Position numbers and translations under genes: made by a program. The notes under the pieces are model-generated. The model was not told the DNA's origin and searched no databases. It saw nothing but the letters and a program-made list of their open reading frames with translations. From Escherichia phage ECOP18, in sequence record NC_105825.1: DNA of 64,000 nt; one strand, written 5' to 3'. Within the stretch, counting starts at the first letter, position 1, and every line of letters begins with the position of its first letter. This document shows, piece by piece, positions 4,043 through 33,865 of this stretch.

Positions 4043-4310
4043 CCTCCCCACTACAATCACGACATACATCATAATCGTTGAAAGAACGTTCGTGAGCTTC
4101 ACACCACCAAGAACAAGAATCGCAGAGAAACATTTCGGTTTTCTCCAGTGCTTGACCTAAAAGATCATCAGCTTCCTCAGCAGTAATCTTCAATCCGCAC
4201 ACATCTGCCACACGTTCTTTAATTAAACGACCTGCTTCATGGTAGGACATACAGGTTCCCGCAACATCATGTTCAAGAACATGAATGGCACAGTCTAGGC
4301 GATTTTTCAT
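4029..4310 (-). CDS. hypothetical Cys-rich protein
   Basis: ORF downstream of consensus early promoter; several Cys pairs. Confidence 0.5.
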   Translation of the reverse strand: MKNRLDCAIHVLEHDVAGTCMSYHEAGRLIKERVADVCGLKITAEEADDLLGQALEKTEMFLCDSCSWWCEAHERSFNDYDVCRDCSGEDEDE

Positions 4311-4340
4311 TTCAAACCTCTCTCATCAATTTATAAACAT

Positions 4341-4369
4341 ATTATAGCAAGAAAAGAGAGGTTTAGCAA
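4341..4369 (-). promoter_or_regulatory. sigma70-type early promoter (TTGCTA-N17-TATAAT on the minus strand)
   Basis: Exact -10, near-consensus -35, A/T-rich upstream block. Confidence 0.6.
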
Positions 4370-4386
4370 ATGAATTATTTCAGAAT

Positions 4387-4734
4387 TTAGTCATAGCACC
4401 ACCATAACCCACGCTTACGCATGTCATGATCGCGATTATAATCATAATTTTCTGGATCTTTCATCACGCGGTGGAGTTCTTGACGATTCCCTTGACGAAC
4501 CATTTTATTAGAATGCCACTTAACATTCTTACTAATAGAATTCCAGTTATAACCATCCTTTTTCTCATTACGAATGGTTGCTTCCTTCATTTCTTTCTTG
4601 ATGTCGTCCCAGGATTTGGCATAAATAACACGAATCCAGTAGCCATTTTCTTTGAAGAAAGAATATTCTTGAGAAAAGTGTTCTTTAGACTTCCACCACT
4701 GATCACCAGATTGTTTACGATAAGTACGGCTCAT
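4387..4734 (-). CDS. hypothetical protein
   Basis: 115-aa ORF. Confidence 0.5.
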   Translation of the reverse strand: MSRTYRKQSGDQWWKSKEHFSQEYSFFKENGYWIRVIYAKSWDDIKKEMKEATIRNEKKDGYNWNSISKNVKWHSNKMVRQGNRQELHRVMKDPENYDYNRDHDMRKRGLWWCYD

Positions 4735-4805
4735 ATTACCTCCATTAAGTCTTTTAAATTAACCTAATGTGGATGAATTTTATTATACATAGATTATTTA
4801 CCTAT

Positions 4806-4844
4806 ATACAGAAAAACCCCAGACTACTTATTCAATAGCTGGGG
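4806..4844 (-). terminator. rho-independent terminator
   Basis: Hairpin CCCCAG/CTGGGG, T-run (TTTTTCTG) on minus strand. Confidence 0.55.
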
Positions 4845-4855
4845 TTTGTTATTAA

Positions 4856-5170
4856 TTACAGATCGGGGCGTTCATCTTCGAAACAGCCTGAGCTGATTCC
4901 TTCTCCGAATCCTACAAAGCCATCAAATTCATCATTTGAGATGCCCATAATCATCGCTTCCATTTTCCTGATCTCCGAGGTTTTCATGCCTGCTTTACTA
5001 TTCTTATAGTACTTGCGAGGGTTCCCGCACATCCAACAAGAACAGATGCAAGGAGTAGTAGTGATAATACCTAACCGCTTAGGGCTTTCTTCATGTGGAA
5101 AGACTGTCCAGTACTTCTTGCGGTTGTTCTTCACACGTTGCCGGTGATGGCGTCTTAATGCTCGATCCAC
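4856..5170 (-). CDS. hypothetical protein
   Basis: 104-aa ORF; terminator hairpin downstream. Confidence 0.5.
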   Translation of the reverse strand: MDRALRRHHRQRVKNNRKKYWTVFPHEESPKRLGIITTTPCICSCWMCGNPRKYYKNSKAGMKTSEIRKMEAMIMGISNDEFDGFVGFGEGISSGCFEDERPDL

Positions 5171-5251
5171 ACATTTCTCCTAAAACTTGGGAGATAAACG
5201 GAGTTTGCTCGACTACCTTACGTAGTTCGTAGAAACCGTACCCAAACCCCA

Positions 5252-5620
5252 TTACATCGCCTGAGTAAATGTACGACTAATAACATCGTTCTGCTGTTCA
5301 CGCGTCAGTGCGTTAAAACGTACAGCATAGCCAGAGACACGGATGGTCAACTGAGGATATTTTTCAGGATGTTTCTGCGCATCCAAAAGCTGATCACAGC
5401 TTAACACATTGACATTTAGGTGCTGACCACCTTCGATTTGAGGGGCGACTTCCACTTTGACTTCACGGAAGGCTTCGGGATCGAATTGTGGTGTGATACC
5501 TTCTAGATCTTCAACTAGAACTTTCTGTTTAAGTTCACCGTTGTCGGAGTATAGCTGAATAATCTGATTTTCATGAACAAGGTTAATTACGCCAGATTTA
5601 AGATTTTGATATGCTTTCAT
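5252..5620 (-). CDS. grcA: autonomous glycyl radical cofactor (GrcA/YfiD-like)
   Basis: C-terminal half nearly collinear with E. coli GrcA as recalled: [42 protein letters not shown]. Confidence 0.75.
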
Positions 5621-5662
5621 TAGATCTCCCCGATGTTAGAATTTGGCTCAGCTATTTATTCT

Positions 5663-5857
5663 TTATACTTTTCCATAGTATACGGAAACTGTCTTACCAG
5701 TTTGGTTCATGACATATGCTACTTCATCTTCTTTTAAAAAGATGGCTTGGTCTACTCCAACTATAGCCAATCTTTTATTTCTAGGATTAAAGCTTACACT
5801 TTTGCCTGTATGAATCTGTTCCCCATTCTTGGCTGACATTATTTTAATTGTTAACAT
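5663..5857 (-). CDS. hypothetical protein
   Basis: 64-aa ORF. Confidence 0.4.
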   Translation of the reverse strand: MLTIKIMSAKNGEQIHTGKSVSFNPRNKRLAIVGVDQAIFLKEDEVAYVMNQTGKTVSVYYGKV

Positions 5858-5904
5858 AGCTGCTCCTAAAGTTAGCTATCTCTAGCTCTTTTAATGGTAG
5901 TTAG

Positions 5905-5980
5905 TAGTGGATTTGAACCACTGTAGTCGCTCCGTATGAAGGAGGTGCATAACCACTCTGCCAACTAACTAGTTAATTCT
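5905..5980 (-). tRNA. tRNA-Met (anticodon CAT)
   Basis: Hand fold: CCA encoded, 7-bp acceptor, T-arm, anticodon loop TTCATAC. Confidence 0.7.
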
Positions 5981-6137
5981 TTATAGGTTAGATCTAGAAG
6001 ATCTTTCTTACTGATAAGTCCTTCTCTATATTGGTCAATAAACATATCTATTCTAGAGTTCTCTGAGACTTCTATATCAGAAAGTTCAGCAAATATTTTT
6101 GCAAGTTTATCAATATCTTCCATACATAACCTTAATT

Positions 6138-6214
6138 TGGTACTCCGGGAGGGATTTAAACCCCCGATCTCTCGGTTATCAGCCGAGTGCTTTAGATCGC
6201 TAAGCTACCGAAGC
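6138..6214 (-). tRNA. tRNA-Ile (GAT)
   Basis: Anticodon arm CTCGG/CCGAG with loop CTGATAA. Confidence 0.7.
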
Positions 6215-6215
6215 A

Positions 6216-6422
6216 TTAACATTTTACAGCAGAACGTTTGCCATTTCTAGGTGCACCTGGAAGTCGTGCACGTTCTGCCATTCTTCTCTTAATCTTTGAG
6301 ATATTTTCTAGTGTTTGTTCCTCCGGCTTAATACCTGAAACACTACACCACTGATTACCATCCCATGCGGTAATGATCATAACACCATTACTCATGATCT
6401 TTTCTGTAAAAGTAATCCTCAT
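6216..6422 (-). CDS. hypothetical protein
   Basis: Start trimmed to ATG overlapping upstream stop (TAATG). Confidence 0.4.
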   Translation of the reverse strand: MRITFTEKIMSNGVMIITAWDGNQWCSVSGIKPEEQTLENISKIKRRMAERARLPGAPRNGKRSAVKC

Positions 6423-6715
6423 TATAGCAACTCGTCTAAGCAAGAGGTATATTTAAGTTTACCATCTTTATCTACTTTGATTTCGACTTCCGCTCGTGGT
6501 ACTTGATGAACTACACCATGAATCATCTTATAGCGAATGCCTTTAGCTGGTTCATGCTCTTTTGGAAATACTTGCTTAACCGTTACTACCTTAAAACCCT
6601 CACGCGGTGTTAACACTACTACTTGATCACCTTCTTTGATCTTCCAAGAGCCAGGAAATTCATAGGTATAGCGTTGACCACCAGTTTGGAACACAACAGA
6701 AAGATAACGTTTCAT
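6422..6715 (-). CDS. hypothetical protein
   Basis: 97-aa ORF behind consensus early promoter. Confidence 0.5.
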   Translation of the reverse strand: MKRYLSVVFQTGGQRYTYEFPGSWKIKEGDQVVVLTPREGFKVVTVKQVFPKEHEPAKGIRYKMIHGVVHQVPRAEVEIKVDKDGKLKYTSCLDELL

Positions 6716-26607: not shown

Positions 26608-29043
26608 TTAAATAGTACAACCACCGGATGCACAACCTGCTGCTTCTTCTCCAGCACCTCCACCATTTGCGGTATTGAAGTTAGCATAATACCAAGTTTT
26701 CCACCCATACTTAACAGCAGTCATGAAATCACGAACTACTACTGGGCCAGGAATAATTTCATTCTCAAACTTGGTGTAGTCATAGTACATATTCGTACTG
26801 ATAGACTGACTGAAGAATTTCTGCATAGTTGCTACCCATTTGATCCACTCGATACGATCTACATCATAAGCCAGTTTATAGCTCATTAACGTTTCCCAAT
26901 CGGTTGCACCCGGGGCAATTGCAATTACTTTATTCACTGCACTACCTTTGATAGATACAATCTTACGAGGCGGTTCAATAGAGTTAGTAACACCTAACAG
27001 AACAGAAGAACTTTCTCCCGGCATCTGAGCAGTCAGAACAGAGTTACGCATACCGTATTTCAGAATATCTGCACGTAGAGACTCCCAATCCATTTCTAGA
27101 CCTACGGATACCAGTTCATCAACAGTTTTCTTATACGTGTCGATTACTAGAATTCCTTTAGATGGTTTAGTACGATCAAACCACTCACATGCACCCTGTT
27201 CTTTAGCCAGGCGTACAGAGGCTTTATGCAGGAAGTAAGACAGTTTTTCAGCCTCACGGTGAATCCAGTTACGGGCTTCAATACCTTCGTAAGCCAGACC
27301 TTCTGCTGCCATTGCACCCGCTGCATTCATCAGGCCAATACCAACATTACGACGTTTCTTAGCCGTATATTCCATAGTTGGGAACGGATAATCCTGAATT
27401 TCAATAATTGTATCAACGAATTTCAGAAGGATGTAGCAAGTTTTTTCCCACTCAGCCAGAGATTCCATGCGTCCAAGTACAACACCACCTAAGTTACACA
27501 GGGATACTTCACCAATATCCTCCGGCTTCATTTGATCAAGCTGCTCTTTTGTCTTATACAGCTCTGTAATATGATGGAACGGGCGTGTAGGCTGAGTAAT
27601 TTCAACACAAAGGTTTGTCATGCGGATCGGATCAAGGAAGTTACCGTGACGATTGGATTCCCCAATGTGGTGAGCATACATACGTCCTGTTTCCATTCGG
27701 ATACGTAGCCAAGTATCTAGGATTTCTTTTGCAGAGACCTTAGGAGCTGCTGGAACTGTCTTTCCTTCGTGGTCGATCTTTGTAAGAGATGCCACACGTT
27801 TCTCCGCTGCCACATAGATTTCTTCAAATTTAGCCTCGTCATCACTATAAAACGCCTCATGAACTTCTGGAGCATAGAAGTATGACATTAGCGTAATATC
27901 TTCGTTTTTCAGATAACGTTTTAACAAAAGATTGTTGAAGCTCAGAGAATAATCCATCTTATCGATTTTATTCTCATCTGTAGCACGTTGTTGCTTAACC
28001 TGCATCAATTGAATGATTTCAGGATCGAAATATGGATAAGACACTGTAGCAGAACCACCACGAGTTTGCTGAGTATTGGCCTTTACTGAGCGGTCAATGT
28101 GTCGATAATATGGCAGTTTTCCGGAATGCGGGAATGCCCCATTTCGCACCGGATCAGCAATTGATCGGCTTTCAAGATGATACCCGATTCCCGCTCTGGC
28201 TGCGACCATTTTGAAGACGATGTGCTCGGCGGTGTCGATTGAATCCAACGTGTCAGTGGAATCCACGAGACAGCAACTAGCAAATCCACGGTCACTAGAG
28301 CGCAAGCCAACCAATGGCGGCGTAGGAATGTTGATTTTGTGTAGCGACATTGCGTTGTAGAGGTCGATTGCATCTAGAATTGTCCAATTAGGTTGAGATA
28401 ACATCGCCATTGCCATACCCATATAGGCAAATTGCGGAGTTTCGTAAATTTCGCCAGTTGCGATATTACGACGGGAATACTTATCAAAGAATTGTTTCAA
28501 TCCTCCGCTAGTGAAAAGACGGTCACGATCATGGTCAATAACCTGATTCAAAGCCTCAAACTGCTCATCGGTAATCCATGCACTCATGTCTTCCCATGCA
28601 CCTACACTAACCATATGATCGTGGAAGAAGCGTAGAGAAGGTGGTTCGAAGGAATCATAAAGGCGTTTACGCATCTGCGCAAGACGTAATTCCTTTGCTG
28701 GCACGTCGTATGCTGGGTTATCTTTAATAAGACTTTCAGCAGCCTTAATTAAAGCATCCATCAGAGTGTCGGAATCCACAACCCCTTTAGGCAGAGTTTT
28801 TTGGGCAGCCATAGTAATGGCAGACCAACTTACATCAACTGTTTTACAACCATACTCTGCCCAACCATTGAGTTTTTCAGGAGCAAAGTCTTCTACAGTA
28901 CCGTCACGTTTAATTACTTTTTCAATGCGATGGCTCATTTGGTTTTCCTTTTTATAGTTATCAGGATTTAGGAAATAGTTTACTTTATTCTCAGTCATTT
29001 GGCAAATAAAATTTTCTGATAGAAAAGGCCCGAGTATTTTCAT
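26608..29043 (-). CDS. nrdA: ribonucleotide reductase class Ia large subunit
   Basis: 811 aa; C-terminal Cys pair (CASGGC); GAAGG RBS. Confidence 0.8.
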   Translation of the reverse strand: MKILGPFLSENFICQMTENKVNYFLNPDNYKKENQMSHRIEKVIKRDGTVEDFAPEKLNGWAEYGCKTVDVSWSAITMAAQKTLPKGVVDSDTLMDALIKAAESLIKDNPAYDVPAKELRLAQMRKRLYDSFEPPSLRFFHDHMVSVGAWEDMSAWITDEQFEALNQVIDHDRDRLFTSGGLKQFFDKYSRRNIATGEIYETPQFAYMGMAMAMLSQPNWTILDAIDLYNAMSLHKINIPTPPLVGLRSSDRGFASCCLVDSTDTLDSIDTAEHIVFKMVAARAGIGYHLESRSIADPVRNGAFPHSGKLPYYRHIDRSVKANTQQTRGGSATVSYPYFDPEIIQLMQVKQQRATDENKIDKMDYSLSFNNLLLKRYLKNEDITLMSYFYAPEVHEAFYSDDEAKFEEIYVAAEKRVASLTKIDHEGKTVPAAPKVSAKEILDTWLRIRMETGRMYAHHIGESNRHGNFLDPIRMTNLCVEITQPTRPFHHITELYKTKEQLDQMKPEDIGEVSLCNLGGVVLGRMESLAEWEKTCYILLKFVDTIIEIQDYPFPTMEYTAKKRRNVGIGLMNAAGAMAAEGLAYEGIEARNWIHREAEKLSYFLHKASVRLAKEQGACEWFDRTKPSKGILVIDTYKKTVDELVSVGLEMDWESLRADILKYGMRNSVLTAQMPGESSSVLLGVTNSIEPPRKIVSIKGSAVNKVIAIAPGATDWETLMSYKLAYDVDRIEWIKWVATMQKFFSQSISTNMYYDYTKFENEIIPGPVVVRDFMTAVKYGWKTWYYANFNTANGGGAGEEAAGCASGGCTI

Positions 29044-29281: not shown

Positions 29282-30043
29282 TTACACCTTCCCCATGTCT
29301 TTAAAAATATCGTAGAATGCTTTAGACTCAGCAGAACGAACGTTATCAATCAATTCGATCATTGAGAATGGGGCATTTTCGTATTTCTCATAGACTTCCA
29401 TAAGTAGTGCTAGACCTGAGTCACATTTAATGTCTTTCTGAGCTATATCTCCGCAGATAATTAAACGGCAGTCTTGTCCTACACGAGTTAGGAGACAAAT
29501 CATTGCCTCAACGGAAATATTCTGAGCTTCATCGACAATTACATAGGAGTTGTTGAAAGTTCTGCCACGAGCATGTTCTACAGCCAAAAATTTAATTTTC
29601 TGACGTTCGACATATCCCTTATAGGCATGATCACCGATGGCCCATTTCATACCATCAGCTATTGGCTCTAACCAAGGCTCTAGCTTTTCCGCTAGATCAC
29701 CAGGAAGCATACCAAGAGACTTACCTAGAGGTTCATTAGGACGTACGAGGATCACTTGCTCAATATCTGAGTGAATGTCTACGAGTTCCTGAGCTGCAAG
29801 AACAGACGGGATAAAGGTTTTACCAGTACCTGGCTCACCGATACCCACAGTCACTGTGTTGTTCTTGATCATATTGATATATGATTTTTGCTCGCGGTTT
29901 TTACCTACTAGGGATTTAGCAACTGGGTTAGCGTAATCATTAGAAAAATCAGCCTGAATTACGTTATTCTCATATTTGTTGCCACGCTTTCTTGAACCAT
30001 TGCGGTTCTCTCTTTTTTGACGTGCTTTTCCCATAAATAACAC
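29282..30043 (-). CDS. phoH: PhoH-like ATPase
   Basis: Walker A GEPGTGKTF and PhoH-like layout. Confidence 0.7.
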   Translation of the reverse strand: MLFMGKARQKRENRNGSRKRGNKYENNVIQADFSNDYANPVAKSLVGKNREQKSYINMIKNNTVTVGIGEPGTGKTFIPSVLAAQELVDIHSDIEQVILVRPNEPLGKSLGMLPGDLAEKLEPWLEPIADGMKWAIGDHAYKGYVERQKIKFLAVEHARGRTFNNSYVIVDEAQNISVEAMICLLTRVGQDCRLIICGDIAQKDIKCDSGLALLMEVYEKYENAPFSMIELIDNVRSAESKAFYDIFKDMGKV

Positions 30044-30386: not shown

Positions 30387-32261
30387 ATGAATCGCAATGA
30401 AGAACTAAAGTATAAAGAAATGCAGGCGTTAATTAGAAACTGCAAAGAGATTATCGAAGGGTCAGCAGATGAAGAGCTGCTGTTTAATAATGCCAATAAA
30501 CCCTCAGAACGTTTCCCTACACAAAGGGATATGCTTGCAGGTGAATTGAGTAAGTATCTGATTCTAGAAGAAATGCCCATTCAGATTCGAAATGCTCATA
30601 TGATTGGAGATATTCATTTCCATGATGCTGACTATGCTGCATTAGGTATGACTAACTGTTGTCTGGTAGCTCTGGAAGATATGTTGAAGAATGGTATGAA
30701 GGTTGGTAATGCTGAAATTAGCACTCCAAACTCTATCACTACTGCGGCAGCTATTACAGCTCAGATTATCACTCAGGTTAGCTCCCATCAGTATGGTGGT
30801 ACTTCTGTAGATCGCCTTGATGAAGTATTAGCCCCTTATGTTCGTAAATCCTATGACAAAAATCATGCGTTTGCAAAACGTTGGACTAAGGATGAAGCCA
30901 AAGCATCCGTAATGGCTACGGAGATGACTGAAAAAGAAGTCTATGATGCTTGTCAGGGTCTAGAGTATGAAATCAATACGATGTTCAACTCTAATGGTCA
31001 GAGTCCATTTATTACCTTTGGTTTTGGTCTAGGGACTTCTTGGGAAGCACGTCTAGTACAGAAAGCAATACTGAAAGTACGTATGGATGGCTTAGGCATC
31101 AATAAACGTACAGCTATCTTTCCGAAACTGGTGTTTGTTCTGCGTGATGGCGTAAATATGAAGCCAGGAGATGTTAATTATGACGTCAAGAAGTTAGCTA
31201 TGAAATGTACTGCTGAACGTATGTATCCAGATTATATCAGCTATGATAAGGTTGTAGAAGTTACTGGGGACTATAAAGTTTCTATGGGCTGCCGTTCATT
31301 CCTAGCTGCTACAGAAGATGGTGAAACTGCCGGTCGTAATAACTTAGGTGTTGTTTCTGTAAACTTGCCTAGAATTGCTATCGAAGCTGAAGGAAATATT
31401 GACCTATTCTTTGATTTGCTTGAGCTACGTGTAGATACAGCATTAAAAGCGTTGGAGTGGAGAGTTGATCGCTTAAAATACATTCAAGCTAAAGCTGCAC
31501 CCATCCTCTATATGTCAGGAGCCTTTGGGTTACGTTTGGGGCCTGATGAATATGTATTCGATCATTTCTATAACCGTGCTTCTGTATCTCTAGGGTATAT
31601 TGGTTGCCATGAAATGCTACAGTTCATGTTTGGCAAAGATGTAGACACAATGTCCGAGACCTGCATCAAGTTTGTTCAGCGTGTATTGCAGTACATGCGG
31701 GATAGAGTCGATCAGAAGAAGGAAGAAACTAAGTTAGGTTATAGCCTGTATGCTACACCATCAGAATCCCTATGTGACCGTTTTTGTCGTCTAGACCGTG
31801 AATACTTCCCGGAGCATGAAGATATTCTGTCCAAAGGATACTACACTAACTCTCACCACCTTGATGTAGAACGTAAAGTTGCTCCCAATGTGAAATTTGA
31901 TTATGAATCTAACTTTACGCCGATTGCTTCTGGTGGATGTATTTCCTATGTAGAACTACCGGATATGAAACGATTCCCAGATGCACTGGAATGGGTTATT
32001 AATTATGCTGCTAGTAAGGTTCATTACTTCGGTATTAATACTCCAGTGGATTCTTGTGGTAAATGTGGATTCTTAGGTGAAACAATAGCATCCGAAGATG
32101 GGTTTAAGTGCCCTATCTGTGGTAATCATGACCCTGAAACTCTTGAAGTAACTCGTCGAGTTTGTGGGTATCTTGGAAATCCGGGTGCTCGTCCATTTAA
32201 CCCCGGCAAACAGCACGAGGTTATGGGCAGAGTGAAACATCAGGATATTCGAGCTAAATAA
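30387..32261 (+). CDS. nrdD: anaerobic ribonucleotide reductase (class III)
   Basis: C-terminal glycyl-radical motif RRVCGYLG and CGKCG zinc site; TTGACA/TATAAT promoter. Confidence 0.85.
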   Translation: MNRNEELKYKEMQALIRNCKEIIEGSADEELLFNNANKPSERFPTQRDMLAGELSKYLILEEMPIQIRNAHMIGDIHFHDADYAALGMTNCCLVALEDMLKNGMKVGNAEISTPNSITTAAAITAQIITQVSSHQYGGTSVDRLDEVLAPYVRKSYDKNHAFAKRWTKDEAKASVMATEMTEKEVYDACQGLEYEINTMFNSNGQSPFITFGFGLGTSWEARLVQKAILKVRMDGLGINKRTAIFPKLVFVLRDGVNMKPGDVNYDVKKLAMKCTAERMYPDYISYDKVVEVTGDYKVSMGCRSFLAATEDGETAGRNNLGVVSVNLPRIAIEAEGNIDLFFDLLELRVDTALKALEWRVDRLKYIQAKAAPILYMSGAFGLRLGPDEYVFDHFYNRASVSLGYIGCHEMLQFMFGKDVDTMSETCIKFVQRVLQYMRDRVDQKKEETKLGYSLYATPSESLCDRFCRLDREYFPEHEDILSKGYYTNSHHLDVERKVAPNVKFDYESNFTPIASGGCISYVELPDMKRFPDALEWVINYAASKVHYFGINTPVDSCGKCGFLGETIASEDGFKCPICGNHDPETLEVTRRVCGYLGNPGARPFNPGKQHEVMGRVKHQDIRAK

Positions 32262-32360: not shown

Positions 32361-32642
32361 ATGAGCGAGTTGCTTCCTAAAGTAGATGTCTCCCATCTTG
32401 GAGAGCCTAGTGAAGAACGTAAGGCTCTAGATTGGTTGGGTGGATTTGATTATCGTCGTGTTGTTGCAACATGGAATGATAAGAAAGTTAAGAAGTTTCG
32501 GGTACATTATGTAGGTAAAGACAAGTGGCTCTGGATTGATTATGAAGAATCGAAGGGATCTACTAAGGCTGTGAAAATTTATCGTATGTATGGGTATTAT
32601 TATGCCCACTGTGATAAGAATGAATTTACAGTACAGAACTAA
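32361..32642 (+). CDS. hypothetical protein
   Basis: 93-aa ORF behind consensus promoter and GAGGAG RBS. Confidence 0.55.
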   Translation: MSELLPKVDVSHLGEPSEERKALDWLGGFDYRRVVATWNDKKVKKFRVHYVGKDKWLWIDYEESKGSTKAVKIYRMYGYYYAHCDKNEFTVQN

Positions 32643-32855: not shown

Positions 32856-33045
32856 GGGTTTAAACGCCGCTTTGGAAAACGCATTAATGCAGCACTGGGA
32901 AACTGGTTATAAGGATGGTGTTGAATCCTGCGCTACTATGTTAGAAGTTATTGCTAATACCTTAATGGAGAAAGGCAATAAAGAATTAGCTGAGCTATTA
33001 GACAGTATTGGGCAAAACTTCAGAGAACAGGTGAAAAATGCGTAG
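32824..33045 (+). CDS. hypothetical protein
   Basis: Trimmed to ATG with GGAGA RBS; overlaps previous stop. Confidence 0.4.
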   Translation: MAFSKPMLPDKGLNAALENALMQHWETGYKDGVESCATMLEVIANTLMEKGNKELAELLDSIGQNFREQVKNA

Positions 33046-33865
33046 ATTAATTATTATTAGCGGTGCAGGTTTGAGTGTTGAAAGTGGTGTACGAGCTTTT
33101 CGTACTGATACTGCTAGTGGTAAAGCACTGTGGGATGATTATGATCTAGAAGAAGTATGTAATATTCATGCCTTTCGTGGTAATTTTTATCATAAAACCC
33201 ATATGTTTTACAACAAGCGTCGTGAAGAGCTAAAAACTGTTGAACCCAATCTTGCACATTTGCGTATTGGTGAATGGTATAAACAATATCCAGGTCAAGT
33301 AGTAAACTTGACTACCAATGTTGATGACCTTATTGAACGTGCAGGCGTTCCACATAGCGACATTCTGCACATTCACGGATATTTAAAAGAGGTTGTTGTA
33401 GCTGACAGCTACAATAGTAGTAATAAACGAATTATTGATGTTGGGTATAACTCTATTGACCCAGATGATTATAAATGGGTTAAACCTAATGTAATCTTCT
33501 TTGGTGAGCATGCTCCAGCATATACAGAAATGTACAATGTTTTTGATGGTATTACCAGTCAAGATATGATCATTGTGGTTGGTTGCTCTAACCAAGTAAT
33601 TAACTTCTACTGGGAATTATTTCCTGTTCTTAATTTGACTGCTGCCAAATTAATGGTAGTTAACTACTATGATAGTGCCCTAGCGACAGAGCCAGGCTAT
33701 CAAGGTATGACTCGTAGTGAGATGTACCAGTTGGAAGAACGCGGTGTCCCTTACTGGAGTAAAGGTGCGGTAGATGCTTTCAGTGATCCTGATTTTATTG
33801 CTCGTGTGGAAGCTCATTTAGAGGGTAGACCTTATATGCTGGGGAACAGACATGTCCATAGTTAA
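33038..33865 (+). CDS. Sir2-family (sirtuin-like) protein, no zinc ribbon
   Basis: NAD-binding motif GAGLSVESGVRAFR and HG (LHIHGY). Confidence 0.6.
   Translation: MRRLIIISGAGLSVESGVRAFRTDTASGKALWDDYDLEEVCNIHAFRGNFYHKTHMFYNKRREELKTVEPNLAHLRIGEWYKQYPGQVVNLTTNVDDLIERAGVPHSDILHIHGYLKEVVVADSYNSSNKRIIDVGYNSIDPDDYKWVKPNVIFFGEHAPAYTEMYNVFDGITSQDMIIVVGCSNQVINFYWELFPVLNLTAAKLMVVNYYDSALATEPGYQGMTRSEMYQLEERGVPYWSKGAVDAFSDPDFIARVEAHLEGRPYMLGNRHVHS

What the first reader, a model, noticed from the sequence alone, without database searches (positions are those of the whole stretch)
5252..5620. Phage-encoded GrcA-like spare glycyl-radical domain alongside nrdD but no activase
The 122-aa product is nearly collinear with the C-terminal half of E. 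coli GrcA as I recall it, including the glycyl-radical motif RVSGYAV. The window also encodes class III NrdD (30387-32261), but no radical-SAM activase (CxxxCxxC) was seen near it. The phage may use this protein to restore oxygen-damaged glycyl-radical enzymes while relying on host activases.
Basis: partly seen in the sequence, partly recalled or inferred. Interest (0 to 1): 0.7.

Follow-up and report, generated by a model that had tools for sequence, protein, structure and literature searches.

The report
T5-type phage copy of GrcA
This is the T5-family phage version of GrcA, a small "spare part" protein that carries a replacement glycyl-radical loop for the host's oxygen-damaged pyruvate formate-lyase; it is real and conserved, but already annotated and its phage T4 counterpart was characterised in 2001.

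Summary
Window 5252..5620 (minus strand) encodes a 122-aa protein. Its last 62 residues are 77% identical to the C-terminus of E. coli PflB and 76% identical to E. coli GrcA. The RVSGYAV motif is intact, with the radical glycine at Gly97. The window is a T5-like phage (Tequintavirus). The gene is the ortholog of T5.056, and many T5-like GenBank records already call it GrcA or pyruvate formate-lyase. It matches T4 Y06I (vs.6) over its full length at 52% identity. Wagner et al. (2001) showed that Y06I is radicalised by host PFL activase and rescues oxygen-cleaved PFL. NrdD at 30387..32261 is confirmed and intact. No NrdG- or PflA-like activase exists in the window or in the complete genome of a 98%-identical relative. 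Phages with nrdD but no nrdG were already described in 2013. The GrcA protein shows no significant similarity to the phage's own NrdD, so the pairing with nrdD is incidental. GrcA would need host PflA, whereas NrdD would need host NrdG. The gene is under purifying selection (dN/dS 0.06-0.16). Verdict: a correct reading of a known gene, and of low interest.

The parts
5252..5620 (-). grcA-like gene (ortholog of T5.056 and of T4 vs.6/Y06I), 122 aa
   Evidence: ORF found. Pfam Gly_radical 4e-17. PHROG 1209 matched over the full length at 1e-46. PDB GrcA 1.6e-29. 94% identical to T5.056 and 52% to T4 Y06I. dN/dS 0.06-0.16 among T5-like phages.
5255..5440 (-). C-terminal glycyl-radical domain (aa 61-122), equivalent to PflB residues 698-759
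   Evidence: tblastn with E. coli PflB gave 77% identity over 62 aa, E 2e-25. Identities are 48/62 to PflB, 47/62 to E. coli GrcA and 48/62 to T4 Y06I.
5321..5341 (-). RVSGYAV glycyl-radical motif; Gly97 codon GGC at 5330..5332
   Evidence: Read directly from the sequence. The motif is invariant in the alignment with PflB, GrcA, Y06I and T5.056. Position computed.
5441..5620 (-). N-terminal region (aa 1-60), phage-type (MKAYQ...), diverged from bacterial GrcA
   Evidence: Pairwise match to the T4 Y06I N-terminus is 29% identity, E 6e-4. Only the last ~10 residues match the E. coli GrcA N-terminus.
5626..5631 (-). Shine-Dalgarno GGGGAG, 5 nt before the ATG
   Evidence: Read.
4812..4847 (-). Likely rho-independent terminator ending the tRNA-ORF-grcA-T5.055 transcription unit (AAACCCCAG...CTGGGGTTTTT)
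   Evidence: The sequence is identical to the terminator annotated at 27219-27251 of T5 NC_005859. The simple terminator scan missed it because the loop is long.
30387..32261 (+). Class III ribonucleotide reductase NrdD (624 aa). It is intact and has no ATP-cone. It is not functionally tied to grcA by any evidence here.
   Evidence: Pfam NRDD 5e-172. NCBIfam NF006732 at 841.7 bits, above the 657 cutoff. 54% identical to E. coli NrdD, aligned from its residue 113. The RRVCGYLG glycyl loop and four Zn-site cysteines are present.

Best explanation
The ORF is the T5-family ortholog of the autonomous glycyl radical cofactor GrcA/YfiD (phage family Y06I/vs.6, T5.056). The proposed mechanism is inferred from the E. 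coli and T4 proteins. When oxygen attacks the Gly734 radical of host pyruvate formate-lyase, the PflB chain is cut and loses its C-terminal radical loop. The phage protein supplies a near-identical replacement for PflB residues ~698-759. Host PFL-activating enzyme PflA (radical SAM) would install a radical on Gly97. The radicalised protein would then dock on the cleaved PFL and restore pyruvate-to-acetyl-CoA conversion. This would keep fermentative energy and carbon flow running in microaerobic, gut-like hosts during infection. The phage encodes no activase, so this step depends on host PflA. In the same way, its NrdD must depend on host NrdG. The identity, motif, conservation and lack of an activase are shown here. 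The activation and rescue steps are inferred by homology.
For: The sequence matches GrcA and the PflB C-terminus at E 1e-29 and 6e-26, with RVSGYAV intact. It matches PHROG 1209 over the full length and is 52% identical to T4 Y06I over all 122 aa. Y06I and YfiD were shown to be radicalised by PFL-AE and to restore oxygen-cleaved PFL (Wagner 2001, as described in PMC8683613). The gene is under purifying selection, with dN/dS 0.06-0.16 and a C-terminal 62 aa almost invariant across Tequintavirus and Epseptimavirus. A GrcA gene also sits within the tRNA cluster of a Vibrio Demerecviridae phage. About 434 T5-like records and 1581 phage records in all carry a homolog. No PflA or NrdG homolog was found in the window or in complete T5_ev212.
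Against: No biochemical or genetic data were found for the T5-type protein itself. It scores 120 bits on TIGR04365, below the equivalog cutoff of 170. However, the validated T4 Y06I also fails that cutoff at 153 bits. The N-terminal 60 residues differ from E. coli YfiD, and in YfiD that region matters for activation by PFL-AE (PMC8683613). Efficient activation by host PflA is therefore not guaranteed. The C-terminal domain has 14 substitutions out of 62 relative to PflB.
Confidence: 0.8

Rival explanations
1. The protein is a spare radical domain for a glycyl-radical enzyme other than PflB. One candidate is the phage's own NrdD, as the finding's title hints. Another is host TdcE (2-ketobutyrate formate-lyase).
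For: The phage carries NrdD, whose glycyl radical is also oxygen-sensitive (established knowledge). Both proteins hit Pfam Gly_radical. Several GenBank records label the gene '2-ketobutyrate formate-lyase'. From my own knowledge, TdcE is a close PflB paralog, so cross-rescue of TdcE is plausible.
Against: GrcA against the phage NrdD gives BLASTP E 5.7, with no aligned radical loop. The NrdD loop is RRVCGYLG and sits next to a Cys4 zinc site, a different architecture from RVSGYAV. The protein is 77% identical to the PflB C-terminus. The two genes are 25 kb apart on opposite strands.
Confidence: 0.1
2. The protein is a decoy or modulator rather than a repair part. It would compete for host PflA or bind PFL to redirect or shut down host fermentation.
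For: The phage-type N-terminal 60 aa differ from bacterial GrcA. In YfiD that region controls activation by PFL-AE and complex formation (PMC8683613).
Against: The radical glycine and the whole RVSGYAV loop are strictly conserved under strong purifying selection. That is expected for a catalytic cofactor and is not required of a decoy. The T4 ortholog, with the same N-terminal type, restores PFL activity.
Confidence: 0.05
3. The gene is a non-functional leftover of a host gene fragment, a captured pflB 3' end or grcA, carried passively in the dispensable tRNA region.
For: It lies in the variable tRNA region of T5-like genomes, next to indels. For example, a 64-aa ORF is present here and in T5_ev212 but absent in T5. 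The gene may be absent from some of the ~500 T5-like records that match the 24-kb region containing nrdD.
Against: dN/dS is 0.06-0.16 with dS up to 0.6. The reading frame is intact in ~434 T5-like records. The RBS is good. A GrcA gene also lies within the tRNA cluster of a Vibrio Demerecviridae phage.
Confidence: 0.05

Closest known systems
Bacteriophage T4 Y06I (gene vs.6), autonomous glycyl radical cofactor
   Same: Both are standalone phage proteins of about 120 aa. They share 52% identity over the full length and the same MKAYQ N-terminal type. The RVSGYAV loop is identical. Both belong to PHROG 1209. Neither phage has been shown to encode PflA.
   Different: The C-terminal 62 aa of T4 are 60/62 identical to E. 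coli GrcA, and 96% identical in DNA. The T5-type domain is about equally distant from GrcA, PflB and T4, at 47-48/62. T4 encodes NrdG for its NrdD, and the T5-like phage does not. Y06I has been tested biochemically, and the T5-type protein has not.
E. coli GrcA/YfiD (PDB 6OWR; TIGR04365)
   Same: It has the same architecture: a short N-terminal region followed by a copy of the PFL glycyl-radical domain. Identity is 76% over the last 62 aa, and the match is E 1.6e-29.
   Different: The N-terminal ~50 residues are barely alignable. The window protein scores below the TIGR04365 equivalog cutoff, 120 against 170. It is phage-encoded.
C-terminal glycyl-radical domain of pyruvate formate-lyase PflB (PDB 1H16, residues 698-759)
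   Same: Identity is 77% over 62 aa, including the Gly734 loop RVSGYAV and the C-terminal TFTQxM ending.
   Different: PflB is a 760-aa enzyme. The window protein contains only the replaceable radical domain plus a 60-aa leader.
T5.056 of phage T5 (NC_005859) and GrcA/PFL-annotated genes of other Tequintavirus and Epseptimavirus phages
   Same: It is the ortholog: 94% identical in protein, at the same position after tRNA-Met and before T5.055 and the terminator.
   Different: There are only point substitutions. The window and T5_ev212 also carry an extra 64-aa ORF between tRNA-Met and the gene.
Phage class III RNR sets with nrdD but no nrdG (Dwivedi et al. 2013)
   Same: The window has nrdA, nrdB, phoH and nrdD but no nrdG. 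This is the arrangement reported for T5, EPS7 and SPC35.
   Different: Nothing differs. This part of the finding restates a published pattern.

Membership tests
GrcA/YfiD autonomous glycyl radical cofactor (IPR011140, TIGR04365) | Small standalone protein (~115-130 aa), not the end of a full-length glycyl radical enzyme | tested here: met
   The ORF is 122 aa with its own RBS and stop. No PFL body is encoded upstream.
GrcA/YfiD autonomous glycyl radical cofactor (IPR011140, TIGR04365) | C-terminal ~60 aa homologous to the PflB C-terminal glycyl-radical domain | tested here: met
   48/62 identical to PflB and 47/62 to GrcA. Pfam Gly_radical 4e-17.
GrcA/YfiD autonomous glycyl radical cofactor (IPR011140, TIGR04365) | Radical-bearing glycine in the RVSGYAV motif | tested here: met
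   RVSGYAV at aa 94-100, with Gly97. The motif is invariant in the alignment.
GrcA/YfiD autonomous glycyl radical cofactor (IPR011140, TIGR04365) | Score at or above NCBIfam's curated equivalog cutoff (170 bits) | tested here: not met
   The score is 120.2 bits and covers only aa 50-122. As calibration, the biochemically validated T4 Y06I also fails at 153.3 bits, while E. coli GrcA scores 234. The cutoff therefore separates bacterial from phage N-termini, not function.
GrcA/YfiD autonomous glycyl radical cofactor (IPR011140, TIGR04365) | Radical installed by PFL-activating enzyme, and restoration of activity to oxygen-cleaved PFL | not testable with these tools
   This is known for YfiD and T4 Y06I only (PMC8683613).
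Phage Y06I/vs.6 family (PHROG 1209) | Full-length similarity, including the phage-type N-terminal region | tested here: met
   PHROG 1209 aligns 1-122 against 1-121, E 1e-46. T4 Y06I is 52% identical over the full length, E 9e-33. The N-termini alone match at E 6e-4.
Class III ribonucleotide reductase NrdD (ORF 30387..32261) | NRDD domain above curated cutoffs, C-terminal RRVCGYLG glycyl loop and Cys4 zinc site | tested here: met
   Pfam NRDD 5e-172. NF006732 at 841.7 bits against 657, and TIGR02487 at 586.9 against 326. The motifs are visible in the alignment with E. coli and T4 NrdD.
Glycyl-radical-enzyme activase (radical SAM; NrdG/PflA) encoded by the phage | ORF of at least ~150 aa with a CxxxCxxC cluster motif and homology to NrdG or PflA | tested here: not met
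   There was no tblastn, phmmer or HMM hit better than E 0.04 in the window or in complete T5_ev212. The only ORF with a CxxxCxxC pattern is 104 aa and has no Pfam or NCBIfam hit, even at E<=10. No activase is annotated in T5_ev212.

The most novel reading that the evidence does not exclude
T5-like phages carry two glycyl-radical proteins (NrdD and GrcA) and no activase. The phage-type N-terminal leader, shared by the T5 and T4 lineages but not by bacterial GrcA, may be an adaptation to host radical-SAM activases. It could allow faster or less restricted radical installation by host PflA, or action on PFL that is not yet cleaved, or on TdcE. That would make the protein a metabolic takeover device rather than a simple copy of the host repair part.
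Probability: 0.08. Interest if true: 0.5.

Novelty: already known. Interest (0 to 1): 0.15.

Why it matters
The gene illustrates a known auxiliary metabolic strategy. Enterobacterial phages carry a cheap 14-kDa replacement part that can keep the host's main anaerobic pyruvate enzyme working after oxygen exposure, using the host's own activating enzyme. For T5-like phages, which are widely used in phage therapy and biocontrol of E. coli and Salmonella, it may affect yield in the microaerobic gut. However, neither the gene class nor the lack of a phage activase is new. The only open point is that the T5-type protein itself has never been tested.

Tried and rejected
1. The 104-aa ORF just downstream of grcA (4856..5170, minus strand) contains CICSCWMC, which fits CxxxCxxC. 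I considered it as a hidden mini-activase and rejected it. It is too short for a radical-SAM core and has no Pfam or NCBIfam hit at E<=10. It belongs to PHROG 4499, of unknown function. Its homologs also occur in Erwinia jumbo and Rhizobium phages, with no evident link to GrcA.

2. The 93-aa ORF right after nrdD (32361..32642) was the best hit for E. coli NrdG, at 10 bits and E 0.04. The match was GKDKWLWIDY against GKDIWVWTGY. I considered it an nrdG relic and rejected it. The motif is not conserved in the 60%-identical KookSpook homolog or in the T5_ev212 ORF at that position. No family hit was found.

3. GrcA as a spare part for the phage NrdD was rejected because there is no significant similarity.

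4. Literature searches for work on the T5-type protein found nothing specific.

5. The simple terminator scan found nothing in 4300-6600. The terminator was recovered by comparison with the annotated T5 terminator.

6. I did not run structure prediction or the large protein-database searches. The 77% identity to solved structures already settles the fold.

Full report
**What is there.** The window is part of a T5-like phage genome (Demerecviridae, Tequintavirus). The 1.4 kb around the finding is 98.6% identical to Escherichia phages SUT_E520, SUT_E1520 and T5_ev212. The 24 kb around nrdD is 95-96% identical to many T5-like phages. Window position equals T5_ev212 position minus 23,168. An ORF lies at exactly 5252..5620 on the minus strand, 122 aa with an ATG start. 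A GGGGAG Shine-Dalgarno sits 5 nt upstream.

**Is the similarity real?** Yes, and far beyond chance.
- Pfam Gly_radical gives E 4e-17.
- NCBIfam GrcA (TIGR04365) gives E 6e-35.
- PDB 6OWR (E. coli GrcA) gives E 1.6e-29, and the PflB C-terminus gives E 6e-26.
- The last 62 residues are 48/62 identical to PflB 698-759, 47/62 to E. coli GrcA, and 48/62 to T4 Y06I.
- RVSGYAV is at residues 94-100, with the radical glycine at Gly97 (window 5330..5332). The motif is invariant in an alignment with PflB, GrcA, T4 Y06I and T5.056.

**What family is it?** The protein matches PHROG 1209 over its full length (E 1e-46). It is 52% identical over all 122 residues to T4 gene vs.6, also called Y06I. The N-terminal 60 residues are of a phage type (MKAYQ...) shared with T4 Y06I (E 6e-4 for that part alone). 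Only the last ten or so of those residues align with E. coli GrcA.

This N-terminal divergence explains a failed threshold. The protein scores 120 bits on TIGR04365, below the 170-bit equivalog cutoff. As a calibration, the biochemically validated T4 Y06I also fails at 153 bits, while E. coli GrcA scores 234. The failed cutoff therefore says nothing against function.

**Known status.** In the T5 reference genome the ortholog is T5.056, 94% identical. It is annotated 'putative acetyltransferase-related protein', identified through InterPro IPR001150, the glycine-radical domain. Many T5-like records call it 'autonomous glycyl radical cofactor GrcA', 'pyruvate formate-lyase' or '2-ketobutyrate formate-lyase'. 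A tblastn search found homologs in 1581 phage records. About 434 of these are T5-like at 80% identity or more, and most of the rest are T-even-like.

Wagner et al. (2001), as summarised in PMC8683613, showed the mechanism for E. coli YfiD and T4 Y06I. Both acquire a glycyl radical from the host PFL-activating enzyme and restore activity to oxygen-cleaved PFL. [quoted passage not shown] I found no paper that tests the T5-type protein.

**Is the gene functional?** Among five T5-like orthologs, dS reaches 0.4-0.6 while dN stays at 0.03-0.06, giving dN/dS of 0.06-0.16. The C-terminal domain is almost invariant. A GrcA gene also sits within the tRNA cluster of Vibrio phage KIT04, a different Demerecviridae subfamily. 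GC content is 41.7%, against 39.7% for the window.

**Context.** The gene sits at the downstream edge of the T5 tRNA cluster, where 21 tRNA genes lie on the minus strand. The order on the minus strand is as follows:
- tRNA-Ile
- tRNA-Met (5895..5970)
- a 64-aa ORF (5663..5857)
- grcA
- a 53-aa ORF that overlaps the grcA stop (TAATG) and a 104-aa ORF (the T5.055 homolog)
- a hairpin plus T-run at 4812..4847

That hairpin is identical to the rho-independent terminator annotated in T5.

**NrdD and the missing activase.** ORF 30387..32261 is a bona fide NrdD. Pfam NRDD gives E 5e-172, and NCBIfam NF006732 gives 841.7 bits against a 657 cutoff. It is 54% identical to E. coli NrdD and 48-49% to T4 NrdD. 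It lacks the N-terminal ATP-cone. It retains the RRVCGYLG glycyl loop and the four zinc-site cysteines.

I took T4 NrdG, E. coli NrdG and E. coli PflA from annotated records. I searched them by tblastn, phmmer and a small HMM against all six frames of the window and of the complete T5_ev212 genome. Nothing scored better than E 0.04. No activase is annotated in T5_ev212. A six-frame scan for CxxxCxxC found only one real ORF. This was the 104-aa T5.055 homolog. It is too short for a radical-SAM core and has no family hit.

It is also published. Dwivedi et al. (2013) note that many phages carry nrdD with nrdAB but no nrdG, and they describe the T5/EPS7/SPC35 arrangement with phoH between the RNR genes.

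**Link between GrcA and NrdD.** None is supported. The two proteins show no significant similarity (BLASTP E 5.7). Their radical loops differ. The genes lie 25 kb apart on opposite strands. By homology, GrcA is a substrate of PflA and a partner of PflB, whereas NrdD is a substrate of NrdG. Even T4, which has its own NrdG, relied on host PFL-AE for Y06I in the published assays. Lack of a phage PflA is therefore the norm for phage GrcA.

**Most likely mechanism.** Shown here are the gene's identity, the intact radical loop, purifying selection and the absence of a phage activase. The following steps are inferred. Host PflA installs a radical on Gly97. The protein replaces the oxygen-severed C-terminal loop of host PflB, and possibly of TdcE. 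This sustains fermentative acetyl-CoA and formate production during infection under fluctuating oxygen. I put confidence in this at about 0.8. The rivals are a spare part for NrdD or another glycyl-radical enzyme, a decoy for PflA, and a passive remnant. Each is disfavoured by the data above.

**Verdict.** The feature is already known and annotated, and its kind has been characterised experimentally in T4. Interest is low, at 0.15. The residual novelty lies only in the untested T5-type protein and its phage-specific N-terminal leader.

Noticed in passing
window 4856..5170 (-): A 104-aa ORF lies 81 nt downstream of grcA. It is the T5.055 homolog (PHROG 4499, unknown function). It has a very basic N-terminus, an acidic C-terminus and a Cys cluster, TTTPCICSCWMCGNPRK, which fits CxxxCxxC. 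It has no Pfam or NCBIfam hit. Homologs also occur in Erwinia jumbo and Rhizobium phages. It looks like a small zinc or nucleic-acid-binding protein, not an activase.
   Followed up: partly
window 5091..5252 (-): A 53-aa ORF (PHROG 31464) has a start that overlaps the grcA stop (TAATG). It also overlaps the 104-aa ORF out of frame. Different GenBank records annotate one or the other, and which one is translated is unresolved.
   Followed up: partly
window 32361..32642 (+): A 93-aa ORF lies immediately after nrdD, in the position where nrdG sits in other genomes. It was the best but very weak hit for E. coli NrdG (GKDKWLWIDY against GKDIWVWTGY, 10 bits). The motif is not conserved in homologs, so this is probably chance. 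T5_ev212 has a different 126-aa ORF at that site that shares only the first ~30 residues.
   Followed up: yes
L001:20001-20363 (phage T4 vs.6/Y06I) compared with L010:567-950 (E. coli grcA): The last 186 nt of T4 vs.6 are 179/186 identical to E. coli K-12 grcA, while the 5' half is phage-type. This looks like a recent recombination or gene conversion between T4 and its host's grcA. The T5-type gene shows no such patch, at 70-76% DNA identity to grcA and pflB.
   Followed up: partly
window 5663..5857 (-): A 64-aa ORF (PHROG 3909) lies between tRNA-Met and grcA. It is present here and in T5_ev212 but absent in the T5 reference, where grcA follows tRNA-Met by 13 nt. This indel explains the two-piece matches seen in many relatives.
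   Followed up: partly
window 30387..32261 (+): The phage NrdD lacks the N-terminal ATP-cone. It aligns to E. coli NrdD only from residue 113, as T4 NrdD does. In the alignment its glycyl-loop segment looks closer to E. coli NrdD than to T4 NrdD. That would be consistent with use of host NrdG but does not prove it.
   Followed up: partly
window 33038..33865 (+) and 29282..30043 (-): A Sir2-family protein (Pfam SIR2, 7e-25) lies about 0.8 kb downstream of nrdD. A PhoH-like ATPase lies between nrdA and nrdD. Both are typical T5-like auxiliary genes.
   Followed up: no
window 4387..4734 (-): A 115-aa ORF matches DUF7295 (E 2e-53). It starts the next transcription unit after the grcA terminator, behind a promoter equivalent to T5 P10a.
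   Followed up: no
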